NCBI GenBank assembly: GCA_028711505.1
Contig: JAQTSC010000001.1
Location: forward strand, 168,604-232,603
Length of the DNA stretch: 64,000 nucleotides
From: Minisyncoccota bacterium
Lineage (GTDB): Bacteria; Patescibacteriota; Minisyncoccia; JAHISW01; Tagabacteraceae
Direction of reading: 5' to 3'
Shown here: positions 47,619 through 64,000 of the stretch, in pieces
How the letters are laid out: each line of letters begins with the position of its first letter
How positions within the stretch are numbered: the stretch's first letter is position 1
Translations under genes and position numbers: made by a program
Notes under the pieces: generated by a model
Seen by the model: only the letters and a program-made list of their open reading frames with translations
Told to the model about the DNA's origin: nothing
The model's database searches: none

Positions 47619-49352
47619 ATGGAAAATGAAAATCAAATCTTAAAAGCTGCGTTGCGATATTGCGATATGGGATTCTCTATAATTCCAATCGGGGAAAATA
47701 AACGTCCGCTTCTTGCCGAATGGAAACCGTATCAAGAAGTGTGCGCAACAAAGGAACAAGTAGAAAAATGGTTTGAACAATTCCCGCAAGCGAATATAGG
47801 AATCATAACGGGCAAAGTGTCCAATATTGTTGTCATAGATGTTGATGATAAAGATGCAGACATATCAGGGCTAATACCAACAGCTATTGCACAAACTGGT
47901 AGAGGCTTCCACTATTATTATTCACATCCTGGCTTTCCTGTTCATTGCGGCATATTGCGTACCAAGATTGATATTAAGGGAGATGGCGGTTATGTAATTG
48001 CTCCGCCCTCATTGCACGCATCTGGACGTCATTATGAATGGGTTTATCATCCCGATGATGTTGGGTTTGCTGATTTACCGCAATGGGTTTTTAGAGAAAA
48101 CGGAAAACAAAAAATCAATCAAATAGAAAATAATCCTCAAACTGAAAATAAAGTATACGAAGGACATCGAAATGATAGTGCTACGAGATTTGCTGGAAAG
48201 CTATTGCACGCACTACCACGCGAAGACTGGGAGTTTGGATGGTCTGTAATACAAAAATGGAATCAAGAGCGATGTGTGCCGCCGCTTCCAGAAAGTGAGC
48301 TGCGAAAAACTTTTGATAGTATTTCTGGACGTGAAAACAAAAGACAAGATGGAAAGGGCGCTACCGAATGGGAAATAAAAACTATGCAACTTTCGGAACT
48401 TGTTAAAATGGATTTTCCAAATCCACAATGGCTCGTAGATAGATTGATTCCGCACGAGGCTGTTACCATCATCTCTGGTACGCCAGCATCTTATAAAACT
48501 TTCCTTACTCTGGACATTGCATTAAAGGTAGCAAGCGGAGAAAAAGTTTTCGGTAATTTCCAGGCTACCCAAAGTCCAGTTTTAATTATTGATGAAGAAA
48601 ATAATCCACGCGTATTACAAGAACGAGTCAAATTACTTTCACAGAATCCCGACTTGCCAATTTTTATAGCATCAAGAAACGGTTTTCAACTTAACGACGA
48701 CAATGTTCAAAAAATTGTTGATTATGCCAAAAGTAAAAATGTACAACTAATTATATTTGACTCTTTTATTTGCATACACCAAGCCGATGAAAATGTGGCA
48801 AGTGAAATGCGTAATGTGATGAAACACTTGAAAGAGATTGCCAGCCACGGCATCGCGGTTATTGTTATTCATCATCACCGCAAAAGAGGAAATGCGGAAA
48901 AAGGAAATGCCTCGCAGGATATGCGCGGCTCTTCCGATATTCTGGCGCAGGTTGATTGTCATTTGGCGATTGATAGAAAAAAGAGCGGAGACGCCAGCGT
49001 TACTATCCAGCAGGTCAAGTTAAGAGAAGCCAAAGAGATGGAGCCATTTGTTGTTTGCCTTCATAGTAATGGCGAGAGTGGATATTTTGAATATGTTGGG
49101 CAAGCCAAAGAAAAAAATGATAAGCAAGGAGATGTTAAAGCAGCTGTAATTAAAATACTTGGCGCAACAGACAAGCCACTAAATAAGGCAGAGGTATGGA
49201 GACTTATCAAACAGTCTGGTGTTGAGGTGGGACAGTCAACATACAAAACAGCCTTTAAGGAATTGGTTGAGACTGGCGAGATACTCACACAGAAAGGGGC
49301 TAAAAATACCATACTTTGCAGTCTGAATAAGTTAGAGGGTGGTGATGGTTAA
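47619..49352 (+). CDS. Bifunctional DNA primase/polymerase (Prim-Pol N-terminal domain) fused to a RecA-like/AAA_25 helicase-type ATPase domain
   Basis: Prim-Pol motifs GFSIIPIG..KRPL, VVIDVD, GRGFHYYY, DIKGDGGYVIAPPSLH. C-terminal Walker A GTPASYKT and Walker B LIIFDSF. Confidence 0.8.
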   Translation: MENENQILKAALRYCDMGFSIIPIGENKRPLLAEWKPYQEVCATKEQVEKWFEQFPQANIGIITGKVSNIVVIDVDDKDADISGLIPTAIAQTGRGFHYYYSHPGFPVHCGILRTKIDIKGDGGYVIAPPSLHASGRHYEWVYHPDDVGFADLPQWVFRENGKQKINQIENNPQTENKVYEGHRNDSATRFAGKLLHALPREDWEFGWSVIQKWNQERCVPPLPESELRKTFDSISGRENKRQDGKGATEWEIKTMQLSELVKMDFPNPQWLVDRLIPHEAVTIISGTPASYKTFLTLDIALKVASGEKVFGNFQATQSPVLIIDEENNPRVLQERVKLLSQNPDLPIFIASRNGFQLNDDNVQKIVDYAKSKNVQLIIFDSFICIHQADENVASEMRNVMKHLKEIASHGIAVIVIHHHRKRGNAEKGNASQDMRGSSDILAQVDCHLAIDRKKSGDASVTIQQVKLREAKEMEPFVVCLHSNGESGYFEYVGQAKEKNDKQGDVKAAVIKILGATDKPLNKAEVWRLIKQSGVEVGQSTYKTAFKELVETGEILTQKGAKNTILCSLNKLEGGDG

Positions 49353-49432
49353 AAACACTACTATATAGTGTCAGATTTTTTTAACCAACTTAAAGGTCGA
49401 AATAATTAAACAATAATTAAACATAAAAAAAT

Positions 49433-49603
49433 ATGGAAGAAGAGCTTTATATCAATGTTCCTCGCCCGTTGCTACAAGACGCAGCCAAAGAAGACTTCGG
49501 GAGATTATTAACCGATGATGAACTCGTGGAGGTAGGAAGTCTGGTCGTAGAAGCGGCTATGGCAGCAATCCAAGAGAGTATTAAACAGGTTGTTGAAAAA
49601 TAA
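49433..49603 (+). CDS. Small acidic hypothetical protein (56 aa)
   Basis: Clean ATG..TAA ORF. Confidence 0.3.
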   Translation: MEEELYINVPRPLLQDAAKEDFGRLLTDDELVEVGSLVVEAAMAAIQESIKQVVEK

Positions 49604-49649
49604 CATCTTGCCAATTCTTGCCACTATGATATACTAACTATGACGCCTA

Positions 49650-49825
49650 CATTTCATAATAGCCATTTTGCTACGTTGTAGCTTTTAGTTCCCAGAAAGG
49701 GGTTCATCCTCTTACTGCCACTAAAAGCTACGCAAGTGGTTTGAAATGTGGGCGTCCAGTAAGATGTGGTGAGCCCCTTTTTGGGTATTTGGGGACACCG
49801 CACAGGTGCCCTTTTTTCTTTTTCC
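49650..49825 (+). ncRNA. Candidate structured small RNA (promoter-to-terminator unit)
   Basis: TTGCCA-N16-TATACT promoter-like sequence at 49617-49644. Long stem GTAGCTTTTAGT...ACTAAAAGCTAC. Ends with a GGGACACC-gcaca-GGTGCCC hairpin plus TTTTTTCTTTTT terminator. Confidence 0.3.
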
Positions 49826-49895
49826 CATTGAGTGCTTCGAGCACTAACGAGCGCCAAGAGTGTCTGGGAGAAAGAAAAAAGGACGCCTTAATAAA

Positions 49896-50126
49896 ATGAA
49901 TATGAACTACCAAAAACAATTAAGTGTTAGCGAACTAATAATGTGGTCGATTTACTTTTTGTTTTTCTTTTCCATTTTTACCGCAATCAGTACTGGAATA
50001 ATGCAATGGCTTTTCGAGATAAAAACATTATCTTTAATAGTCGGAATAACTTGTGGAATCGTGGGCTGCTATTTGGTAAGAAACTTACCGCACAAAATGA
50101 AAGTAAATGACCGCGGCGGATTATAA
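49896..50126 (+). CDS. Small 2-TM membrane protein
   Basis: MNMNYQ start. Two hydrophobic helices. Confidence 0.35.
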   Translation: MNMNYQKQLSVSELIMWSIYFLFFFSIFTAISTGIMQWLFEIKTLSLIVGITCGIVGCYLVRNLPHKMKVNDRGGL

Positions 50127-50147
50127 ACTAACTTCACTTACAAAAAT

Positions 50148-51725
50148 ATGACCAATAACATTTCATCAAAAATAAAAGCAATGGTTTTCTGCCGCGTCTC
50201 TTCCAAAGAACAAGAAGACACGGGCTACTCGTTGGACTCGCAAGAAAAACTTTTGACCGAGTATGCGAAAAAATACGATTACAAAATTGTAAAAGTCTAC
50301 CGCATATCTGAATCAGCCAGCGGCAAACAGGTGCGCAAAACTTTTATTGAGGCTTTGCAATTTGCCACAAAAAATAAAATAGAAATTATTTTGTGTGAAA
50401 AAATTGACCGCCTTACTCGCAACTTAAAAGATGCCGCCACAATAGATGACTGGGTAAAGGAAGACACGGCGCGCGCAGTTCATTTCGTCAAAGAAAACTT
50501 TATCTTGAACCAACAGACGAAGGCTCACGATAATTTTATTTGGGATATGAAAGTTGCTGTTGCCAGATTTTATACCAACAATCTTTCCGAAGAAGTTAAG
50601 AAAGGACAAATAGAAAAAATAGCCCAAGGTTGGCTACCAACAAAACCGCCGCTCGGATATAAAACTATCGGCGACAAAGGACACAAGACGCACGTCATTG
50701 ATGAAGAAGTGGCGCCTTTTATGCGCAAGATGTTTGAATGGTACGCTACGGGCAATTATTCAGTTGCGCGCGTGGAAAAGGAATTGTTTGAGGCTGGGCT
50801 GCGCACACGTTCGGGTAAAAAGCTGGGAATGAGTCGAATCCATATGATGCTACAAGACCCGTTCTATTACGGCAAGATGCGCTGGATGGGAAAAGTATTT
50901 GCTGGTATGCACAAGCCGCTTATAGAAAAAGATGTGTTTGATAAAGTACAAGGATTACTGCGCCGAAAAACAAACTCACCTCATCTTCGAAAACACAACC
51001 CACTTTTTAAGAGCAAAATCTTCTGCGAAAATTGCGGCGGGATGATGACTTGGTATGAGAAGAAAGGACACTGGTATGGGCACTGTAACAACCACGGAGA
51101 GTACGCCAGGTGCACTAAAAAGACCTGTATGAGGCAGGAAGCCATAGAAGAACAGATAACCACCGTCTTTGACGTCATAGCCCCTCAAAATGAGGAGGTG
51201 CTTGCAGCGATAGTTCAAATCCTTAAAGACAAACACAAGGATATGACCGCCAACCGCGAGAATGATATTAAAAGGTATAATTCGCTCCTGGCTAATGTCC
51301 AGACACAGAAAGACAGACTCTACGAAGCCAAGCTAAATAAGGAGGTGCCAGTTGAGTACGTAGAGCGCAAGCTGGCTGAATTAACCACCGAAGCAGAGAC
51401 TTTGGAAAATACCCTGGTTTCTGTGAGAGACAAGAGCGATGAGCACCAAGCGGCAGGCATTGCCGTACACGAGCTGGCGTTTCGTTCAAAGGAGATTTAC
51501 GAGGTAGCTGATGACGTTGATATGAAGAGATTGCTTTTGTCTCAATTATTTACGAACTTGCTACAAAATGGGCTTGAAATAAAGAAAGAATACACATCCG
51601 CCGCTAAATTATTGATAGAATGGGTGCCAAAGCTAAACAAGGATTACGAACTGCAAAAAAGTGAGCAGATAAAAGGAAAAGACGTCGTTTTGTCGACGTC
51701 TTCTCCTGTCTGGCTCCGGTGGTAG
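50148..51725 (+). CDS. Large serine recombinase (resolvase catalytic domain + recombinase domain + Zn ribbon + coiled-coil)
   Basis: Catalytic AMVFCRVSSKEQ (Ser nucleophile), IDRLTRN, Cys cluster CENCGG...CNNHGEYARCTKKTC. The last 5 codons overlap the tRNA-Asn 3' end. Confidence 0.85.
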   Translation: MTNNISSKIKAMVFCRVSSKEQEDTGYSLDSQEKLLTEYAKKYDYKIVKVYRISESASGKQVRKTFIEALQFATKNKIEIILCEKIDRLTRNLKDAATIDDWVKEDTARAVHFVKENFILNQQTKAHDNFIWDMKVAVARFYTNNLSEEVKKGQIEKIAQGWLPTKPPLGYKTIGDKGHKTHVIDEEVAPFMRKMFEWYATGNYSVARVEKELFEAGLRTRSGKKLGMSRIHMMLQDPFYYGKMRWMGKVFAGMHKPLIEKDVFDKVQGLLRRKTNSPHLRKHNPLFKSKIFCENCGGMMTWYEKKGHWYGHCNNHGEYARCTKKTCMRQEAIEEQITTVFDVIAPQNEEVLAAIVQILKDKHKDMTANRENDIKRYNSLLANVQTQKDRLYEAKLNKEVPVEYVERKLAELTTEAETLENTLVSVRDKSDEHQAAGIAVHELAFRSKEIYEVADDVDMKRLLLSQLFTNLLQNGLEIKKEYTSAAKLLIEWVPKLNKDYELQKSEQIKGKDVVLSTSSPVWLRW

Positions 51726-51785
51726 GATTCGAACCTACAACCAACTCCTTAACAGGGAGCTGCGCTACCGTTGCGCTACACCGGA
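51711..51785 (-). tRNA. tRNA-Asn (anticodon GTT)
   Basis: 75 nt cloverleaf. Acceptor TCCGGTG/CACCGGA, D-arm GCGC-AACGGTA-GCGC, anticodon loop CTGTTAA, T-arm GTAGG-TTCGAAT-CCTAC, discriminator G, encoded CCA. Confidence 0.85.
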
Positions 51786-58968: not shown

Positions 58969-59415
58969 TCACTTCTCAAGCGTTTTCCTTAATTCGCTTA
59001 TAACTGCTTTTTCCCAATACTTCATCGAATACCAACGGATAAGTGGCGTTGCGGCTACGCGTAGCCATGCCTTATGAATTGAAACGCGATAAGTGTAATC
59101 GATTAAGGTTCCTTCGGGGGATTTGGAAAATAGCATCTCTTCATGCCCGGAAGTTCCGAATTTAGAGCTTTCATTATCCGAAATGAACCCCTTCCCAGGG
59201 AGAATCTGAGTTTTCATTTTTACCGGAAATTTTTTGCCGAACGAACTGGCAATTGCATCCATTTCTACATAATTTCCCTCCCGTTTCTTCACTCGTATTG
59301 ATTCGGCAACCCTTGGAAAATAATCGGGGAATTTCTCGAAGTCTGTCATCATACTGAAAACATCTTCAACAGGTGCTTTAATAATCCACTGACCATGAAG
59401 CGTAATTTCTTTCAT
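58969..59415 (-). CDS. SRPBCC (polyketide cyclase/dehydrase-like) family protein
   Basis: Start trimmed to MKEITLHGQWIIKAPVEDVFSMMTDFEKFPDYFP. Confidence 0.5.
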   Translation of the reverse strand: MKEITLHGQWIIKAPVEDVFSMMTDFEKFPDYFPRVAESIRVKKREGNYVEMDAIASSFGKKFPVKMKTQILPGKGFISDNESSKFGTSGHEEMLFSKSPEGTLIDYTYRVSIHKAWLRVAATPLIRWYSMKYWEKAVISELRKTLEK

Positions 59416-59685
59416 CTGGGTAATTTTTCCATGACTTCTTTCAATTTCGCTGAATGTAAAACTTGGCGGAGAGGGCGAGAAGATAGATTCGGTCAGACAT
59501 TTTTTATCCGCCGTAGGCGGTGACCAAGCTCTCTCCACAAAACGGTGTACTCGGGTTAAGTACCCGTGACTTCAATGTTTATAAGGGTATTTTAGCACGA
59601 TTTTAGGCCTCGCTTCAAGGCATGTGGGTCGGGGTCTGGCTTTTTAAAAATGCGACAAATGCGACAGTACTTAAGCATTTTTGCT

Positions 59686-60330
59686 TTACTCAGCAAATGC
59701 AGTTAAATGTGGCCAAATTTTGTATTTTCCAAGCACTTTTTCTGGTTCATAGATCTCATACCATGGAGTCATTGCTATTGTATTTTCCTTGCCCTCGACT
59801 GGCACAGAGACATATTCGAGCAGTTTCTTGGGCGGTAACACGCCTTCATTTTCTTTTATTAAAAATACTTCAAAACCACTCTGAGGAATAATCCGTGCTT
59901 TCAAGACACCTTGTCGAATAAGTTTTCTAACAGTTGGCGACTTCATTTTAAAATAAGTATCAAATTCCCAAGTCGCATACCAATCTTTATCGTTATAGCA
60001 AATCTTACCAGAAATAATTTTCTTGTTGACCGCGTCCTGACAAGCAAGACATTTTTTACCCCATTTATCATACCAAAGCTGTTCGTCCTTAATTGAGGCG
60101 TGGCAAATACCACAATTATAGGTTTGACCATCCATTAAACAATAACCCTTGGGATGATCTTTTAGTTTTTCTTTAAGTTTTAATTCTCGCACGTGGCTAT
60201 CAAACAAAATTTTATATAAACCAACCAAACGCTCGCCAGACTCACGAGCTTCTTCAAAGGAAATTTCTTTTCCATATTCTTTTTTGAAAATTTCCTGAAA
60301 TTCTTTAATTGCTTTTTCTGATAAAGACAT
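59686..60330 (-). CDS. Zn-ribbon (CxxC...CxxC) hypothetical protein, terminal gene of the CBASS-like operon
   Basis: YNCGICH...CLACQD. Start abuts the upstream stop, suggesting translational coupling. Very AT-rich. Confidence 0.5.
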   Translation of the reverse strand: MSLSEKAIKEFQEIFKKEYGKEISFEEARESGERLVGLYKILFDSHVRELKLKEKLKDHPKGYCLMDGQTYNCGICHASIKDEQLWYDKWGKKCLACQDAVNKKIISGKICYNDKDWYATWEFDTYFKMKSPTVRKLIRQGVLKARIIPQSGFEVFLIKENEGVLPPKKLLEYVSVPVEGKENTIAMTPWYEIYEPEKVLGKYKIWPHLTAFAE

Positions 60331-61014
60331 TTATTTTTTGTTAGCGATCTTATATATAATTTGATCTATACTCTCAAGAGTCTTTTTGGCATCTTTTGCT
60401 CTAATTTGACCTTTATATTTTTTCATTAACTCAAAATGACAATTTCTTAATTTTTTATTACTACCACAATAACAATTCCAGTGTCCTTTGATTTTCTTTT
60501 TGGTTAGATATTCGATAAATCTATAGACTGCTTTTATATCGTCTGTATTTAATATTTCCTTATAAAATTGAAGGGCTCCGTCTAACCCGTGCGCGTATGC
60601 CTTATCCTTGTTTTTGCCACCACTTACCTCGTATTCTATTTGCCAGAGAAAAAATGGCTCAACCAATTTTTTCATAAAATCAAGAATTGTAGATTTTTCG
60701 TTCCAGTACAAAAAGATTGCATCTCTAAAACACAAACACGCCTTTCCATCATTTTCAAAATGCCGGTCTGGAACTGTAGGAATTCGATTCCCAGTTTCTC
60801 TAACTTCTGGTATTTCTTGTGGAAAGTTATAAGGCACCTGTATATCAATCTTAAAACTATCCAGAATAGTATTTTTACTGTCCCTGATTCTAAGAGTGCC
60901 TTTTATATGAACTAGATTATTCTCTATTGAAACGACTAGGGTTGGATAATTTTTGTCAATTTCTGATTTGAGGGAGTTAAATAGTTCTTTATTTTGGAGA
61001 TGCCAATAGTTCAT
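60331..61014 (-). CDS. Possible E2 (UBC-fold)-like protein (CBASS Cap2-E2-only type)
   Basis: RHFENDGKACLCFRDAIFLYW resembles the E2 HPN-x-G-x-ICL-x-IL active-site segment, with Cys in the expected position. Confidence 0.35.
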   Translation of the reverse strand: MNYWHLQNKELFNSLKSEIDKNYPTLVVSIENNLVHIKGTLRIRDSKNTILDSFKIDIQVPYNFPQEIPEVRETGNRIPTVPDRHFENDGKACLCFRDAIFLYWNEKSTILDFMKKLVEPFFLWQIEYEVSGGKNKDKAYAHGLDGALQFYKEILNTDDIKAVYRFIEYLTKKKIKGHWNCYCGSNKKLRNCHFELMKKYKGQIRAKDAKKTLESIDQIIYKIANKK

Positions 61015-61017
61015 AAC

Positions 61018-61902
61018 TTAGCAATTCAGCCATGGTTTGGGTGCGTTGCCTTGATTGCTATTTGTTTTAAAAGAATTAACCACATAGCTTTTATCAGTAT
61101 CCTCCGCGATGCCAAATAATTCCTCCCAATTATCATTATTAATCAACTCAATTGCTTTTGTAGCAGCCGCAGACAGATTACTTTTTACGGTACTATCAAA
61201 TAGCGAACTAAGGTCGTTTCCTGAATTGGCAGGATCCTCAATCGAAATATTATCTATGTTGGTACTTAATTCTTCAAAGAATTTCTTAAGGCATTTCCCT
61301 AAACCATCATCATCTTTACTTTTTTCTAGAACCTTAACAACTAAAAGCTCCAAAACAAAAGTTTTTACATCAATTGAATAGATGTTTTTCCAAATCTTAA
61401 CCAATTTTATTGTTTTGGTTAGTGCACTATCTTTAATATGACTGATATGTACATCAAGATTAGTCTTTAGGCGTTTTTTATCACCCGATGACTGATAAAG
61501 AAAAGTGTCACTTTCAGAATCATCAACAAATCTTCCTGGGACAACATCGATATGAAAATCAAATTTATTTTCGCCCTGGAGACGTAACGCTGACTTCTTT
61601 GAGACAATCGTATATTGCTTTGATAGCGAATCTTTAACATTATTAAAAATATCTTCCAAATTATCTCCCGCTGAATCATCGTCATGCTTAAAATAACAGA
61701 CAATATCTAAGTCATAACTAGCTTTTATCATGGTCTCTTTTTTATAAGAACCAGCATATCTAATCACTGGGTTTCCGTCGAAAGAGTCAGAGATAGCCTT
61801 CTCCACCTTTGCTTTCTCTTCTTGCATGGCCTTGGCCTCTGCAGAATCTTTTGTTAAACCTTCTTTACTCAATATTTGCTCTAAATATTTTTCTGTTTCC
61901 AT
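61018..61902 (-). CDS. SMODS-type nucleotidyltransferase (CD-NTase-like second-messenger synthase)
   Basis: GS-x10-DLD (RYAGSYKKETMIKASYDLDIV) and third acidic residue in FDFHIDVVPG. Confidence 0.65.
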   Translation of the reverse strand: METEKYLEQILSKEGLTKDSAEAKAMQEEKAKVEKAISDSFDGNPVIRYAGSYKKETMIKASYDLDIVCYFKHDDDSAGDNLEDIFNNVKDSLSKQYTIVSKKSALRLQGENKFDFHIDVVPGRFVDDSESDTFLYQSSGDKKRLKTNLDVHISHIKDSALTKTIKLVKIWKNIYSIDVKTFVLELLVVKVLEKSKDDDGLGKCLKKFFEELSTNIDNISIEDPANSGNDLSSLFDSTVKSNLSAAATKAIELINNDNWEELFGIAEDTDKSYVVNSFKTNSNQGNAPKPWLNC

Positions 61903-61912
61903 ATTTTTATAA

Positions 61913-63061
61913 TTAATTAATTGTTAATGAATACTTAAATTTACCTTTGTTGTACGTATTATAGATTTTTAATTTTGGGTCAGAATGTTTATTTAATGAT
62001 CTGCCGCAAACTATCGCCACTGGGGCAGGGACTGCTGGGAAAACATCAATATTTTTTAAACCAACATGCTCATTTTTAATTTTACTTATCGTATCGGAAA
62101 AACACTTTTCAAAATTTAATAAGTCTTTTTGCGTTCTTAGAAAGTTGTAATTCGGACTTCCCACTAAAGACAGTTCGTATATATAATATTTTTTGTCTAT
62201 TTTTGTGGGTAGCAAATCTCGTTTTATTGTTCCAGACAACGATAGTAATAATGCCACCTTGCTCTTATCTTGTCCTTTGTCGGTTAACTTAAACTGGTAA
62301 TCGGCCTTTGGTTTTCCATTTTTCCACTCCCAGTTTTCTCCGTCACGATGGCGTTGGAATATTTTAGTTTTGATTTTATTATCTAATTTCGAACCCAAAT
62401 ACATAAGAAGCGGCATAGGTCCTATTCCAAAAATTGACACATGTTCTATTTTTTCTCTTTTTAAATCAGAATAGAATTTATCAAGGGTGCTATTGATATC
62501 TCGCGATTTTGACTTCCAATAATCACTGCTGTCTTGTCCTGGATTATTAGAAAAATCAACTTCTTCGAATTTGTCTTCACAAGGTATTAATCCAGCTTTC
62601 ATTAGTGCCTTTACGATATCAGGGGTTGATAATTTAACAGTCTCAGAGTTTATATTGGCAACCATTTTCAAAACTTTTGTTTGTCTTTTCTGATCAAAAC
62701 TTGTAGATAACAGAATTCGTTTTTCGTGCTCAGCTTTATAATCTTGCAGTTGCTGAGCGGTGTAATATTCATCCTGTCCTGTTTTATCAATTTTCTCATG
62801 GCAATCAGGACACGCTAATAGTAAATTACTAACGTTATTTTTATCAGTGATATATTTATTAGCCCTGGGGCCTTTATTACTAAAGGCATATATATGAGCC
62901 ATTTCTCCCCATACAAATTGTTGCCTTGTTGTGGAATCTTTGATTACTAGCTTGTTACAAATTTCGCACCTACCAGCAGATTTCGCGAATAATAAAACCT
63001 TAGTATTTTCCTTAATACCACGACCATTTTTTATTTCTGTAATTTTTATATCTGTATTCAT
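61913..63061 (-). CDS. HNH endonuclease fused to a SAVED-like sensor domain (Cap5-like CBASS effector)
   Basis: HNH motif CEICNK..H..N..ACPDCH in the first ~100 aa. The remaining ~280 aa is the size and position of a SAVED domain. Confidence 0.55.
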   Translation of the reverse strand: MNTDIKITEIKNGRGIKENTKVLLFAKSAGRCEICNKLVIKDSTTRQQFVWGEMAHIYAFSNKGPRANKYITDKNNVSNLLLACPDCHEKIDKTGQDEYYTAQQLQDYKAEHEKRILLSTSFDQKRQTKVLKMVANINSETVKLSTPDIVKALMKAGLIPCEDKFEEVDFSNNPGQDSSDYWKSKSRDINSTLDKFYSDLKREKIEHVSIFGIGPMPLLMYLGSKLDNKIKTKIFQRHRDGENWEWKNGKPKADYQFKLTDKGQDKSKVALLLSLSGTIKRDLLPTKIDKKYYIYELSLVGSPNYNFLRTQKDLLNFEKCFSDTISKIKNEHVGLKNIDVFPAVPAPVAIVCGRSLNKHSDPKLKIYNTYNKGKFKYSLTIN

Positions 63062-63065
63062 ATCT

Positions 63066-63701
63066 CTATTTTTTAATAACTCTAACAGCGACCCCGTTGA
63101 CCATATAGCTAGAGCTGTTTATATCTGATTCGTGTAAAATAATCGGTGGAATTTCTTGTGTTGATTCAGAAACAAGACGAATTTCGTGTTTACTGTCATC
63201 TTTAAAAAACTTCTTGAAATTGGCCGCACCGTCAATGATGGATAAAACATAATCCCCATTGCTCGGTTGCTGTTTGCAATCAACGATTACATAGTCGCCG
63301 TCTTCAATATTTTCACCTCCAATATTTGCCTTATTCAGAGAGTCACCGACAGCTCTCACAGCAATCAGTCCGTCAGGCTTAGATCTCTTAAGCGATGTTT
63401 GAGTAATTTTTAAGTATTTCTGGATATCTTCCTGGGCCAACTCCATAGCTGGACCGCAGTTGGCAGATCCAACCAGTGGGATGCTAAATAATTTATCTAC
63501 AGCAAAAGCTTTAGGTTTCGCCACCCTCTGACGCTTTTTAATATCCAAATACAGAAGTCCTTTCTTTTTAAGTTGATCAAGATGATAGATCACTGTCTGT
63601 GGATTGGGAATACCTAGCTCACGGCCTATTTCTCTGAAAGTCATCTTGGAAATATCCTTTTTCTTAGCTAAATCTATTAATTTTTGTTGGTTTTCGTTCA
63701 T
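63066..63701 (-). CDS. LexA-like repressor (winged HTH + S24 peptidase autocleavage domain)
   Basis: N-terminal HTH (MTFREIGRELGIPNPQTVIYHLDQLKKKG), Ala-Gly cleavage-site region (VGSANCGPAMEL), Ser-Lys dyad context (VRAVGDSL ... K). Confidence 0.75.
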   Translation of the reverse strand: MNENQQKLIDLAKKKDISKMTFREIGRELGIPNPQTVIYHLDQLKKKGLLYLDIKKRQRVAKPKAFAVDKLFSIPLVGSANCGPAMELAQEDIQKYLKITQTSLKRSKPDGLIAVRAVGDSLNKANIGGENIEDGDYVIVDCKQQPSNGDYVLSIIDGAANFKKFFKDDSKHEIRLVSESTQEIPPIILHESDINSSSYMVNGVAVRVIKK

Positions 63702-63727
63702 AGGACTTTGTTTATAATTTCTTATTA

Positions 63728-63756
63728 ACTATTTCCATTATAATCTAAGCTGTTTC
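63728..63756 (-). promoter_or_regulatory. Sigma-70 consensus promoter of the lexA-like/CBASS-like operon
   Basis: Reverse strand reads TTGACA-N17-TATAAT exactly, about 27 nt upstream of the lexA-like ATG. Confidence 0.55.
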
Positions 63757-63782
63757 TAATGTCAATAGATTATTTATTGACA
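63752..63782. promoter_or_regulatory. Palindromic operator candidate overlapping the -35 element
   Basis: GTCAATAG-N15-CTATTGAC with a third TATTGAC half-site in the spacer. Confidence 0.4.
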
Positions 63783-63921
63783 CTATTGACGGCACCCAAC
63801 GATTGGGTATATACTTTAAGTAGGTTTGAATACCAAACAACAAACCCAAGAATCTTACGACAATTGAATAGAAATAATGCAACCTAAATAAAAAGCGAGG
63901 GCTTATCCCCTCAATCAGGCC

Positions 63922-63996
63922 GGAGCACTTATTTCACTACACCAAACACGAAATGCTTTTTTGTGTTGGAAAAGTGAAATAGGTGCTTTTTATTTT
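63922..63996 (+). terminator. Nested hairpin followed by TTTTTATTTT (plus-strand terminator-like)
   Basis: GCACTTATTTCACT...AGTGAAATAGGTGC outer stem with an inner CCAACAC/GTGTTGG stem. Confidence 0.4.
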
Positions 63997-64000
63997 GGTC

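What the first reader, a model, noticed from the sequence alone, without database searches (positions are those of the whole stretch)
59686..63790. AT-rich five-gene CBASS-like island under a LexA-type repressor with consensus promoter and palindromic operator
Five tightly packed minus-strand genes with 0-4 nt gaps, in an island whose G+C is visibly far lower than its neighbours. In transcription order they encode a LexA-like HTH+S24 repressor, an HNH nuclease fused to a SAVED-sized C-terminal domain, a SMODS nucleotidyltransferase (GS-x10-DxD plus a third Asp), a protein with an E2-like HFEN..GKACLC segment, and a Zn-ribbon protein. The operon sits under a textbook TTGACA-N17-TATAAT promoter that overlaps GTCAATAG-N15-CTATTGAC.

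Having a single-polypeptide LexA-type autoprotease as the first gene of a cyclic-oligonucleotide defence operon would couple it directly to DNA damage. The usual arrangement is a separate CapH/CapP HTH-metallopeptidase pair. In a Patescibacteria-like genome, presumably epibiotic or reduced, this cargo is unusual. The trailing Zn-ribbon gene has no obvious assignment.
Basis: partly seen in the sequence, partly recalled or inferred. Interest (0 to 1): 0.8.

Follow-up and report, generated by a model that had tools for sequence, protein, structure and literature searches.

The report
LexA-led swappable defence operon, CBASS cargo
The five genes are real, but the LexA-like self-cleaving repressor is not a CBASS part: it heads a cargo slot on a mobile element common in Patescibacteria, and in related copies the same repressor and promoter drive CBASS, Thoeris-like, Avs4 and other anti-phage systems.

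Summary
Five co-directional genes (gaps 0-10 nt) lie in a low-GC block (0.32-0.385, against 0.40-0.45 in the flanks). They follow the only perfect TTGACA-17-TATAAT promoter in the window, which is overlapped by GTCAATA half-sites.

Genes 2-4 are a bona fide E2-type (type II short) CBASS: a Cap5 HNH-SAVED effector, a CD-NTase and an E2. Gene 1 is a LexA-family wHTH+S24 protein with invariant catalytic Ser and Lys and a Cys-Gly cleavage site.

About 55 related loci change the interpretation. The S24 gene, a divergent ParB-methyltransferase operon, gene 5 and a conserved ~140-bp terminal segment form a mobile backbone, usually next to a large serine recombinase. Its right end is base-precise and sits in different chromosomal contexts.

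Between the S24 gene and gene 5 is an exchangeable slot. Different loci carry E2-CBASS, Cap15-CBASS, other SMODS systems, ThsB-TIR genes, Avs4, nSTAND3, TPR-PIN or Schlafen. So the repressor is a general regulator of a plug-in defence operon, and the "Zn-ribbon" gene belongs to the backbone.

DNA-damage induction is plausible but inferred. I found no prior description. I rate it a new variant of a known kind.

The parts
63737..63765 (-). Sigma-70 promoter of the S24-cargo operon (TTGACA-17-TATAAT, 12/12).
   Evidence: It is the only perfect match in the 64-kb window. The TTGACA and TATA(A/C)T hexamers are conserved upstream of S24 homologs in other loci.
63760..63790 (.). Operator region with three GTCAATA-type half-sites. 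The inner palindrome TGTCAATA-N7-TATTGACA is at 63760-63782, and a third copy lies at 63784-63790 (9-bp direct spacing). The outer sites overlap the -35 boxes of the two divergent promoters.
   Evidence: Searches show the motif is unique in the window. The half-site pattern is conserved in more than 20 loci, including 43-45%-identical homologs whose flanking DNA no longer aligns. The middle half-site is not part of either promoter.
63786..63815 (+). Divergent promoter-like site (TTGACG-18-TATACT, 10/12). It reads toward the ParB-methyltransferase operon that lies beyond the window end.
   Evidence: One search found the site. Its -10 region is conserved in L007, L013, L051 and L055. In close relatives ParB_N+N6_N4_Mtase begins about 355-375 bp upstream of S24.
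63066..63701 (-). LexA-family repressor (winged HTH plus S24 autopeptidase), 211 aa. It is the first gene of the operon and a backbone gene of the element.
   Evidence: Pfam Peptidase_S24 scores 6.5e-15 and LexA_DNA_bind 24.0 bits (cutoff 23.7). It aligns full-length to solved LexA (3k2z, 1jhh). Ser121 and Lys163 are invariant, and Cys82-Gly83 sits at the LexA Ala84-Gly85 position. There are 924 homologs, all of whose source-given names refer to Patescibacteria-type (candidate phyla radiation) taxa.
61913..63061 (-). Cap5-type CBASS effector: N-terminal HNH nuclease plus C-terminal SAVED sensor (cargo).
   Evidence: PADLOC PDLC00746 scores 1.5e-161, and Pfam SAVED scores 2e-38. It aligns full-length to solved Cap5 chains 8ysq, 7rwm, 7rwk and 8fm1, with E down to 1.4e-41.
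61018..61902 (-). CD-NTase (SMODS cyclase), a short 294-aa form (cargo).
   Evidence: PADLOC cyclase PDLC00803 scores 6.4e-73, and Pfam SMODS scores 1.8e-08. The family profile matches solved CD-NTases (9sa4 at 9e-29, plus CdnD and CdnC). G51, S52, D64, D66 and D119 are invariant.
60331..61014 (-). E2-like CBASS accessory protein with conserved Cys93 and a C-terminal SEC-C-like CxC...CH zinc motif (cargo).
   Evidence: PADLOC E2 PDLC00872 scores 4.1e-71, and six more E2 or E1-E2 models score below 1e-27. Pfam E2-ntca is sub-threshold (17.5 bits against 27.5). There is no sequence or profile match to any solved chain.
59686..60330 (-). Backbone gene 5 (214 aa): an N-terminal helical hairpin, a CxxC...CxxC zinc ribbon and a MerR/Xis-like winged-helix subdomain. 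It is the last gene before the element end. Its function is unknown, and a DNA-binding or recombination-directionality role is a guess.
   Evidence: It has 88 homologs of about 219 aa and no Pfam, PADLOC, NCBIfam or PHROG family. It also follows Avs4 cargo in L055 and is split in L047. Its N-terminal ~57 aa match a 58-aa ORF after three cargo types. The AF2 model has pLDDT 94.4. Only subdomain matches were found (BldC, Pukovnik Xis, BmrR). C73, C76, C94 and C97 are invariant.
59543..59685 (-). Conserved non-coding terminal segment marking the right end of the element. It holds a tandem TGTCGCATT repeat (59649-59666), an extended -10 promoter-like site (59618..59589) and a hairpin CGGGT-ACTTA-ACCCG (59552-59566). 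Homology ends after ...TACACCG at about 59543.
   Evidence: It is 87-93% identical in loci with different cargo. The flanks diverge completely after the same base in more than 10 loci. The terminal motif occurs once per locus and is also seen in the deep-branching loci L027, L028 and L032. Housekeeping genes and host-level GC resume to its right.
63882..63999 (.). Structured leader in the S24/ParB-MTase intergenic region. It has a 22-nt-arm hairpin (63924-63945 / 63966-63987) followed by a T-run on the plus strand, and a short GC hairpin plus T-run (63913-63896) on the minus strand.
   Evidence: Searches found the hairpins. The region is conserved at 88-97% in L007, L051 and L055. The only Rfam hit is sub-threshold (SpF19, E 0.56).

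Best explanation
Window 59543-64000 is the right arm of a mobile, probably serine-recombinase-borne, element that is widespread in Patescibacteria.

The arm is a single operon. It starts at a consensus sigma-70 promoter and has four parts:
(i) a LexA-family repressor (winged HTH plus S24 self-cleaving peptidase);
(ii) an exchangeable cargo slot;
(iii) a conserved zinc-ribbon/winged-helix backbone gene (gene 5);
(iv) a conserved ~140-bp terminal segment.

In this copy the slot holds a three-gene E2-type CBASS. On phage infection the CD-NTase makes a cyclic oligonucleotide, the SAVED domain of Cap5 binds it, and the HNH nuclease degrades DNA, which aborts the infection. The E2 modulates the cyclase by covalent conjugation.

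The repressor dimer binds GTCAATA half-sites that overlap the -35 boxes of its own promoter and of a divergent promoter for the ParB-methyltransferase operon. This keeps both at a low, autoregulated level. When RecA-ssDNA filaments form, through DNA damage or phage replication, the repressor cleaves itself at Cys82-Gly83 and both operons are derepressed. Whatever defence cassette is installed is then boosted.

Shown here: gene identities, catalytic and cleavage-site residues, promoter and operator conservation, cargo exchange, the precise right terminus in different contexts, and mosaic recombination.

Inferred: DNA binding at these sites, autocleavage, RecA dependence, the direction of regulation and the transposition mechanism.
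For: Gene identities.

Operon geometry: gaps are 0-10 nt and there is a single perfect promoter.

Operator: GTCAA half-sites are conserved from 96% down to 43% S24 identity, while the surrounding DNA is unalignable.

Backbone: ParB_N/N6_N4 MTase sits divergent from S24 in every locus with enough upstream sequence, down to 48-58% S24 identity. A large serine recombinase is adjacent in all six long contigs sampled (L004, L047, L049, L055, L056, L057).

Cargo slot: about 21 distinct architectures were seen, and about 18 of them have defence-family hits:
- Cap5+CD-NTase+E2;
- SMODS+Cap15;
- SAVED+SMODS;
- SMODS-AGS_C;
- ThsB_TIR x2;
- Avs4 (2241 bits);
- nSTAND3;
- TPR+PIN;
- Schlafen/AlbA_2;
- PDC-S54.
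Cargo is always co-directional with S24. The gap from the S24 or DUF2188 stop codon is mostly 2-20 nt and at most 55 nt.

Mobility: the right end is identical to the base and followed by unrelated flanks. L051/L053, L052/L054 and the window carry elements about 93% identical over 4.46 kb with three different right flanks. Housekeeping genes (RpoD, RNR, FKBP) and host GC follow immediately in the window.

Mosaicism: compared with L051, the S24 gene is 69-81% identical, while the upstream DNA is 97% and the CBASS genes 94-99% identical.
Against: No experiment or transcript data exists. Repression, autocleavage and RecA dependence are inferred from homology only.

The protein scores below NCBIfam's LexA equivalog cutoff (76 against 111 bits). 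It has Cys-Gly rather than Ala-Gly at the cleavage site.

Because the repressor is co-transcribed with the cargo, basal expression may already be sufficient, and induction may matter little.

The left arm and the recombinase of this particular copy lie beyond the window end and could not be retrieved.

No left-terminus repeat or att site was identified, so the mechanism of movement is unproven.

L051 and L052 share an identical left 6.6 kb but differ on the right. That could also reflect rearrangement at the terminus rather than independent insertions.

No copy was found in IMG/VR viral contigs.
Confidence: 0.7

Rival explanations
1. Maintenance-repressor reading. The S24 protein is mainly the element's cI/SetR-like immunity repressor. 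It holds the leftward (ParB-methyltransferase/terminase-small-like, and perhaps excision) functions off. The defence cassette is a 'moron' that rides on the repressor transcript, as rexAB rides with lambda cI, so it is expressed constitutively in the resident state. DNA damage would then mainly trigger element mobilisation, and induction of the defence cargo would be incidental or absent.
For: The half-sites overlap a divergent promoter pair, which is typical of MGE immunity switches. Backbone proteins have phage-type relatives: ParB-MTase matches phrog_498 at 4e-84, p172/p220 weakly match terminase small subunit, DUF2188 matches phrog_3220, and the recombinase matches integrase phrog_95. The repressor allele is swapped independently of its flanks, as in phage immunity regions.
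Against: The operator also covers the S24-cargo promoter's own -35 hexamer, so by geometry loss of repressor should raise cargo transcription too. No excisionase, replication or structural genes were recognised in the leftward operon. No copy was found in viral contig or phage collections. This reading overlaps with the best explanation and differs mainly in emphasis.
Confidence: 0.3
2. Host-LexA reading. The 211-aa protein is the organism's own housekeeping SOS repressor. The DNA immediately downstream of lexA is a chromosomal hotspot where defence islands accumulate, and co-transcription is a by-product.
For: The family is very large and tightly conserved in length (924 hits, mostly 209-215 aa), and JGI annotation of many members reads 'repressor LexA'. 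More distant members (43% identity; L035-L037) are stand-alone genes among housekeeping genes and have the same GTCAA-type operator. The element clade therefore clearly derives from a Patescibacterial LexA.
Against: In every sampled locus with at least 48-57% S24 identity, the gene travels with the ParB-MTase, usually a serine recombinase, gene 5/p58 and the terminal segment. This block sits in unrelated chromosomal neighbourhoods with a base-precise end. Its GC is below host level. Cargo is always co-directional with mostly 2-20-nt junctions, unlike ordinary hotspots. The S24 allele is mosaic relative to its flanks. The operator is unique in 64 kb, although that is a weak test.
Confidence: 0.12
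3. The LexA-type protein is a dedicated CBASS component, a single-polypeptide substitute for CapH/CapP that co-evolved with this CBASS operon.
For: In the window the S24 stop codon is 4 nt from the Cap5 start, and both lie in the low-GC block. CBASS of several types is the commonest cargo in the sample.
Against: S24 proteins 94% identical to the window's head a different CBASS (Cap15 type; L012, L013). Others 64-82% identical head Avs4, TIR, TPR-PIN or PDC-S54 cargo, or none. The S24 gene and the CBASS genes of the window have different closest relatives: L007 for S24 and L051 for CBASS.
Confidence: 0.04

Closest known systems
CapH/CapP (HTH repressor plus Zn-metallopeptidase), regulators of CBASS and other defence operons (bioRxiv 10.1101/2022.04.27.489752; PMC13228613)
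   Same: It is a protease-inactivated repressor that binds the promoter of a defence operon. It is associated with several CBASS types and with non-CBASS systems, and it is proposed to link defence expression to DNA damage.
   Different: CapH/CapP are two proteins encoded upstream on the opposite strand, and the protease is a metallopeptidase activated by ssDNA. Here a single LexA-type Ser-Lys autopeptidase is the first gene of the operon on the same strand and is part of a mobile backbone. No CapP-like gene is present.
CapW/BrxR (wHTH-WYL-WCX) and CapK/CapS regulators of immune operons (PMC11662680; PMC13373217)
   Same: They are modular regulators found upstream of many different defence systems, and they respond to DNA damage or ssDNA.
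   Different: Their folds and signal-sensing mechanisms are unrelated (a WYL ssDNA sensor, and a kinase plus a phosphorylated repressor). The CapK/CapS paper does not mention LexA or S24 at all.
LexA/UmuD and cI/SetR-type S24 repressors of prophages and the SXT ICE (background knowledge; solved LexA 1jhh, 3k2z, 3jso)
   Same: It has a winged HTH plus S24 domain, a Ser/Lys dyad, a cleavage loop, and negative autoregulation from an operator overlapping its own promoter. An element-borne repressor that senses RecA is the standard way mobile elements couple to the SOS response.
   Different: It scores below the LexA equivalog cutoff. The operator uses GTCAATA half-sites rather than CTGT-N8-ACAG or GAAC-N4-GTTC, and the cleavage site is Cys-Gly, as in UmuD. 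Here the repressor transcript itself carries the defence cassette.
Defence genes co-transcribed with, or adjacent to, a prophage repressor, and defence hotspots in mobile elements (lambda cI-rexAB; P2/P4 hotspots, bioRxiv 10.1101/2021.01.21.427644; SXT ICE hotspot 5, background knowledge)
   Same: There is a fixed position in a mobile backbone where unrelated defence systems replace one another, flanked by conserved genes.
   Different: The host clade (Patescibacteria) and the backbone differ: ParB-MTase, SNase, LexA-like repressor, gene 5, a terminal segment and a large serine recombinase. The slot lies inside the repressor's own operon with mostly 2-20-nt junctions.
E2-CBASS (type II short) SmCdnG-SmE2 (PMC12948482) and Cap5 HNH-SAVED effectors (PDB 7rwk, 7rwm, 8fm1)
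   Same: The operon has a CD-NTase plus a stand-alone E2 without E1 or JAB, and an HNH-SAVED effector that aligns end to end with solved Cap5.
   Different: The described E2-CBASS cyclases are long clade-G enzymes (about 398 aa) with a C-terminal E2-binding helix/beta-sheet ending in Gly. This cyclase is 294 aa and ends in a conserved P-KPW-LN(x) motif. This E2 has an extra SEC-C-like zinc motif and no detectable sequence similarity to any solved chain.

Membership tests
LexA/S24 repressor family | N-terminal LexA-type winged HTH plus C-terminal Peptidase_S24 domain | tested here: met
   Pfam PF00717 scores 6.5e-15, and PF01726 scores 24.0 bits against a cutoff of 23.7. Residues 5-210 align to E. 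coli LexA residues 8-197.
LexA/S24 repressor family | Catalytic Ser-Lys dyad | tested here: met
   Ser121 aligns with LexA S119 and Lys163 with LexA K156. Both are invariant in 19 family members.
LexA/S24 repressor family | Scissile Ala-Gly (or Cys-Gly) bond in the cleavage loop | tested here: met
   Cys82-Gly83 aligns with LexA Ala84-Gly85. Gly is invariant and Cys at least 90% conserved. That UmuD uses a Cys-Gly bond is background knowledge.
LexA (equivalog; global SOS repressor) | Score above the NCBIfam TIGR00498 trusted cutoff | tested here: not met
   The score is 76.3 bits against a cutoff of 110.95.
LexA (equivalog; global SOS repressor) | Operator boxes upstream of recA, uvr and other SOS genes in the same genome | tested here: inconclusive
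   The operator is unique within the 64-kb window. The rest of the genome was not available.
LexA/S24 repressor family | RecA-stimulated or alkaline self-cleavage, and operator binding | not testable with these tools
   This needs biochemistry.
CBASS | CD-NTase with the GS...DxD...D active site | tested here: met
   PADLOC cyclase scores 6.4e-73. The family profile matches solved CD-NTases at 9e-29. G51, S52, D64, D66 and D119 are invariant.
CBASS | Effector with a cyclic-oligonucleotide sensor domain fused to a killing domain | tested here: met
   The SAVED domain scores 2e-38. The full-length HNH-SAVED protein matches PADLOC at 1.5e-161 and solved Cap5 at 1.4e-41.
E2-CBASS (type II short) | Stand-alone E2 with a catalytic Cys, and no E1 or JAB gene | tested here: inconclusive
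   PADLOC E2 models score 4e-71 and Cys93 is conserved. No E1 or JAB ORF is present in the operon. However, Pfam E2-ntca is sub-threshold, there is no match to solved E2 or Cap2 chains, and the single-sequence AF2 model is unusable (pLDDT 40). The UBC fold is therefore not verified.
E2-CBASS (type II short) | Long clade-G cyclase with a C-terminal E2-binding motif ending in a conserved Gly (PMC12948482) | tested here: not met
   The cyclase is 294 aa. Its C-terminus has a conserved P-KPW-LN(x) motif, and the Gly at ...QGN... is not conserved.
CapH/CapP-regulated defence operon | HTH repressor plus DUF955/Zn-metallopeptidase gene pair upstream on the opposite strand | tested here: not met
   No metallopeptidase is present. 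The upstream divergent gene in relatives is a ParB_N/N6_N4 methyltransferase.
Integrative element moved by a large serine recombinase | Recombinase gene within or next to the conserved backbone | tested here: inconclusive
   This is met in relatives L004, L013, L047, L049, L055, L056 and L057. The left arm of the window's own copy lies beyond position 64000. The recombinase at 50148-51725 is separated from the element by housekeeping genes.
Integrative element moved by a large serine recombinase | Defined termini, with the same element in different insertion contexts | tested here: met
   The right terminus is precise to the base in more than 10 loci with unrelated flanks. The left terminus and att sites were not identified.
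Prophage or phage satellite | Structural, packaging or replication genes, or presence in viral collections | tested here: not met
   There are no relatives in IMG/VR, and phage genomes give only hits of 31% identity or less. The only matches are weak terminase-small-like hits for p172/p220 (1.6e-6 to 3.7e-6).

The most novel reading that the evidence does not exclude
Patescibacteria carry a family of small mobile 'defence carriers'. In these, a captured LexA paralog serves as a single-polypeptide, RecA-coupled master switch for whatever anti-phage cassette is plugged into its operon (CBASS, Thoeris-like, Avs, PIN, Schlafen and others). This would be a fourth class of DNA-damage-responsive regulator of immune operons, after CapH/CapP, CapW/BrxR and CapK/CapS, and the first that is co-transcribed with its cargo. 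Because stand-alone host-type relatives share the same GTCAA operator, the element may also be wired into the host SOS regulon. Unassigned cargos in the slot (for example L004, L023 and L056, and the unassigned genes next to known hits in L017, L028 and L049) would then be candidate new defence systems.
Probability: 0.45. Interest if true: 0.8.

Novelty: new variant of a known kind. Interest (0 to 1): 0.66.

Why it matters
How abortive-infection systems are kept in check transcriptionally is an active question. Three regulator modules have been described since 2022, none of them LexA-type, and full-text searches found no S24/LexA regulator of CBASS or other defence operons.

If this repressor is RecA-cleavable, it gives the most direct known link between the SOS signal and defence expression. 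It does so in reduced-genome, largely uncultured bacteria, for which full-text searches here found almost no defence or mobile-element literature.

The conserved flanks are the S24 gene on one side and gene 5 plus the terminal segment on the other. They also give a simple, testable 'bait' for finding new defence systems in metagenomes.

Finally, the cassette-swapping with mostly 2-20-nt junctions is a compact natural expression platform.

Tried and rejected
(1) Exact-sequence look-ups of the window's S24 and Cap5 proteins, meant to recover the source contig beyond position 64000, found nothing on record. Gene 5 gave only a 974-bp contig.

(2) Scanning viral contigs for S24 relatives found none. 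The phage genome collection gave only hits of 31% identity or less.

(3) Rfam on 59000-64000 gave only two sub-threshold hits (SpF19 at E 0.56, DUF2815 RNA at E 0.75). No known RNA family explains the terminal segment or the leader hairpins.

(4) tRNA scanning found no tRNA at the element boundary. The only tRNA (Asn, 51711-51785) belongs to another region.

(5) A search for the operator elsewhere in the window found only the one copy. This is uninformative about a regulon.

(6) A search for a direct or inverted copy of the right-terminal 24-mer at a left end found none.

(8) The E2 structure could not be modelled usefully. Sequence and profile searches of solved chains found nothing.

(9) I considered that the outward promoter in the terminal segment drives the recombinase across a circular junction, as I recall for Tn4451. 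I set this aside because in L055 the recombinase is transcribed away from the junction.

(10) I considered that the serine recombinase at 50148-51725 belongs to this element. I rejected this because RpoD, RNR, FKBP and other core genes at host GC lie in between.

Full report
**1. Observation**

ORF listing confirms five minus-strand genes at exactly the reported coordinates. The gaps between them are 4, 10, 3 and 0 nt.

GC is 0.385 for the first gene and 0.319-0.355 for the other four. The genes to the right are at 0.40-0.45, and the whole window is at 0.404.

The promoter TTGACA-17-TATAAT at 63765..63737 on the minus strand is the only perfect match in the 64 kb.

The reported palindrome exists, but at 63761-63768 and 63783-63790 with a 14-nt spacer. 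A tighter perfect palindrome, TGTCAATA-N7-TATTGACA (63760-63782), covers the -35 hexamer.

**2. Gene identities**

Gene 1 (211 aa)
- It matches Peptidase_S24 (6.5e-15) and LexA_DNA_bind, just above the cutoff.
- It aligns end to end with solved LexA structures.
- Ser121 and Lys163 align with LexA S119 and K156 and are invariant in the family.
- The cleavage-site position reads Cys82-Gly83, as I recall for UmuD.
- It is below NCBIfam's LexA equivalog cutoff (76 against 111 bits).

Gene 2 (382 aa) is a Cap5-type HNH-SAVED effector. It matches PADLOC at 1.5e-161 and solved Cap5 chains at 1e-41 to 1e-24.

Gene 3 (294 aa) is a CD-NTase. It matches PADLOC at 6e-73, and the family profile matches solved CD-NTases at 9e-29. 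G51, S52, D64, D66 and D119 are invariant.

Gene 4 (227 aa)
- It matches seven PADLOC E2 or E1-E2 models at 1e-27 or better, the best at 4e-71.
- It keeps a DRHF..DG.AC93LC motif plus a SEC-C-like zinc motif.
- Its E2 fold could not be verified.

Gene 5 (214 aa) has no family in Pfam, PADLOC, NCBIfam or PHROGs.

**3. The regulator is not CBASS-specific**

The S24 protein has 924 homologs at E ≤ 1e-5. Nearly all are about 211 aa, and every source-given name refers to a Patescibacteria-type taxon.

I fetched 2 genome loci, 37 metagenome loci and several loci by exact-protein look-up. I then mapped their genes.

A conserved backbone emerged. It runs: [large serine recombinase] ... SNase, then a 172-220-aa protein, then ParB_N/N6_N4 methyltransferase, all on one strand. 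Divergent from these are the S24 gene, an optional 77-aa DUF2188 gene (or a 156-aa protein in deeper branches), variable genes, gene 5 or a 58-aa remnant of it, and a conserved non-coding segment.

The ParB-MTase/S24 pairing persists down to 48-58% S24 identity (L027, L028, L029, L032).

The variable genes are always co-directional with S24. They start mostly 2-20 nt (at most 55 nt) after the preceding stop codon. Their identities, are:
- Cap5+CD-NTase+E2 (window, L051-54, L007-11, L002/L038, L003);
- SMODS cyclase plus Cap15 (L012, L013, L019);
- SAVED effector plus SMODS (L047, L057);
- other SMODS operons (L022/L027, L025, L026);
- two ThsB-TIR genes (L018);
- Avs4 at 2241 and 1809 bits (L049, L055);
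- nSTAND3 NTPase (L029);
- an 1184-aa TPR-PIN protein (L015);
- Schlafen/AlbA_2 (L028);
- a PDC-S54 candidate (L017);
- a few cargos with no assignment (L004, L023, L056).

S24 proteins 94% identical to the window's head a different CBASS type (L012, L013). The repressor is therefore a general head gene of an exchangeable defence slot.

**4. Gene 5 and the right end**

The N-terminal ~57 residues of gene 5 match the 58-aa ORF that follows E2-CBASS, Cap15-CBASS and the TIR cargo. Full-length relatives (about 219 aa; 88 hits) follow Avs4 in L055, and the gene is split in L047. It is thus a backbone gene.

A family-based AlphaFold model is very confident (pLDDT 94.4) but has no whole-fold match in the PDB. 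Only a ~50-residue MerR/Xis-type winged helix is recognisable (BldC, Pukovnik Xis, BmrR). It is combined with an invariant CxxC...CxxC zinc ribbon.

Immediately after gene 5, window 59543-59685 is 87-93% identical across loci with different cargo, more conserved than the coding genes. It contains:
- a tandem TGTCGCATT repeat;
- an extended -10 promoter-like site;
- a short hairpin.

Similarity stops at the same base (...TACACCG[C]) in more than 10 loci, after which the flanks are unrelated. The terminal motif occurs once per locus, including in deep-branching members.

In the window, the genes that follow are housekeeping genes at host GC: SRPBCC, SIMPL, FKBP, ribonucleotide reductase and RpoD.

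L051/L053, L052/L054 and the window carry elements about 93% identical over 4.46 kb, with three different right flanks. This argues for a mobile element with a defined right terminus.

The left terminus was not found. A second variable stretch lies between the recombinase and SNase in some copies.

**5. Regulation**

Upstream of S24 homologs the same pattern recurs. Two GTCAA(T/C)A half-sites sit 9 bp apart, with an inverted TTGAC forming the -35 hexamer. This holds even at 43-45% protein identity, where the surrounding DNA is unalignable.

In the window the outer half-site also overlaps the -35 of a divergent promoter-like site (63786..63815). That site's -10 region is conserved in relatives. 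The middle half-site belongs to neither promoter.

The simplest reading is a repressor dimer (or two dimers) shutting both promoters, with negative autoregulation of the S24-cargo operon. By analogy with LexA, cI and SetR, derepression would follow RecA-stimulated self-cleavage. These steps are inferred, not shown.

**6. Host LexA or element-borne paralog?**

The most distant homologs (43%; L035-L037) are stand-alone genes among housekeeping genes. They have no ParB-MTase, recombinase or cargo, yet keep the GTCAA operator.

The element-borne clade therefore looks like a captured paralog of a Patescibacterial LexA.

Compared with L051, the window's S24 gene is only 69-81% identical, while the upstream DNA is 97% and the CBASS genes 94-99% identical. 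The window's S24 is instead closest to L007's. This shows allele swapping of the repressor independently of the cargo.

Backbone proteins have phage-type relatives: ParB-MTase matches phrog_498 at 4e-84, p172/p220 weakly match small-terminase families, and the recombinase matches integrase phrog_95. No structural genes and no viral-collection copies were found.

**7. Comparison with known systems**

CapH/CapP, CapW/BrxR and CapK/CapS are modular, DNA-damage-responsive regulators of diverse immune operons. They are encoded divergently and use other folds.

Full-text searches found no LexA/S24-type regulator of CBASS or defence operons, and no description of this element.

The CBASS cassette belongs to the known E2-only class (PMC12948482). 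It deviates from the described members in two ways: the cyclase is short with a conserved C-terminal P-KPW motif, and the E2 carries a zinc motif.

The concept of defence cargo in a fixed slot of a mobile element, next to the repressor, is known from lambda rexAB, P2/P4 hotspots and SXT. The novelty lies in three things: the LexA-type head gene, the intra-operon slot, and the Patescibacterial element.

**8. Verdict**

The CBASS itself is ordinary. The interesting object is larger than the finding: a LexA-headed, exchangeable defence operon on a mobile backbone. I rate it a new variant of a known kind, with interest 0.66.

Noticed in passing
window 59543-59685 (just outside the finding's start): A ~140-bp non-coding segment is more conserved (87-93%) than the neighbouring genes across loci with different cargo. 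It has a tandem TGTCGCATT repeat, an outward-facing extended -10 promoter-like site and a hairpin. Homology ends at the same base everywhere. Its role (recombination site, outward promoter or small RNA) is unresolved.
   Followed up: partly
window 63882-63999: The leader between the S24 gene and the ParB-MTase (which lies off-window) contains a 22-nt-arm hairpin followed by a T-run on the plus strand, and a GC hairpin plus T-run on the minus strand. These look like back-to-back terminators or attenuators. The region is 88-97% conserved in L007, L051 and L055, and the only Rfam hit is sub-threshold.
   Followed up: partly
window 47619-51785: A separate mobile-element remnant is present. A Prim-Pol/AAA_25 primase-helicase gene (47619-49352) and a 525-aa large serine recombinase gene (50148-51725) abut tRNA-Asn (51711-51785). 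Housekeeping genes separate them from the CBASS element.
   Followed up: partly
window 63100-63700 versus L051 and L007: The locus is mosaic. The S24 gene is 69-81% identical to L051, while the flanking upstream DNA (97%) and the CBASS genes (94-99%) are near-identical. The S24 allele is instead closest to L007. The repressor appears to be exchanged independently, like a phage immunity region.
   Followed up: yes
L011 1204-4563; L015 2969-5122; L007 1-4600; L051 364-3012: A second variable stretch lies between the serine recombinase and the SNase gene of the backbone. It holds type I R-M-like genes (HsdR, YgjP) in L007/L017/L038. In L051 it holds an 882-aa methyltransferase next to a gene with a faint Cas12f1-like_TNB Pfam hit.
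   Followed up: partly
window 61018-61060 (cyclase C-terminus) and 60430-60480 (E2 C-terminus): The cyclase ends in a P-KPW-LN(x) motif that is conserved even in a 20%-identical relative (L047). This differs from the terminal Gly reported for E2-CBASS cyclases. The E2 carries a conserved SEC-C-like H..CxC...CH zinc motif.
   Followed up: partly
L035 2474-3091; L036 7513-8139; L037 8001-8627: S24 homologs at about 43% identity are stand-alone genes among housekeeping genes (tRNA-binding protein, SDR, P-type ATPase, glycosyltransferase). They keep GTCAA-type repeats at their promoters and are candidate host-type LexA genes of Patescibacteria.
   Followed up: partly
L007 8648-8881 and equivalents; L022, L025, L026, L027 (156-aa ORF after S24): Most copies have a 77-aa DUF2188 gene (phrog_3220) between S24 and the cargo. 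Deeper branches have a 156-aa protein with a weak lamin-tail-domain hit instead. The window and L051-54 have neither. The function of this second conserved gene is unknown.
   Followed up: no
L004 9076-9953; L023 831-3888; L056 9896-11917; L017 9303-10145; L049 15522-17860: These cargo-slot genes have no Pfam or PADLOC assignment, or only a non-defence family (M23 peptidase in L056). Given their position, they are candidates for undescribed defence functions.
   Followed up: no
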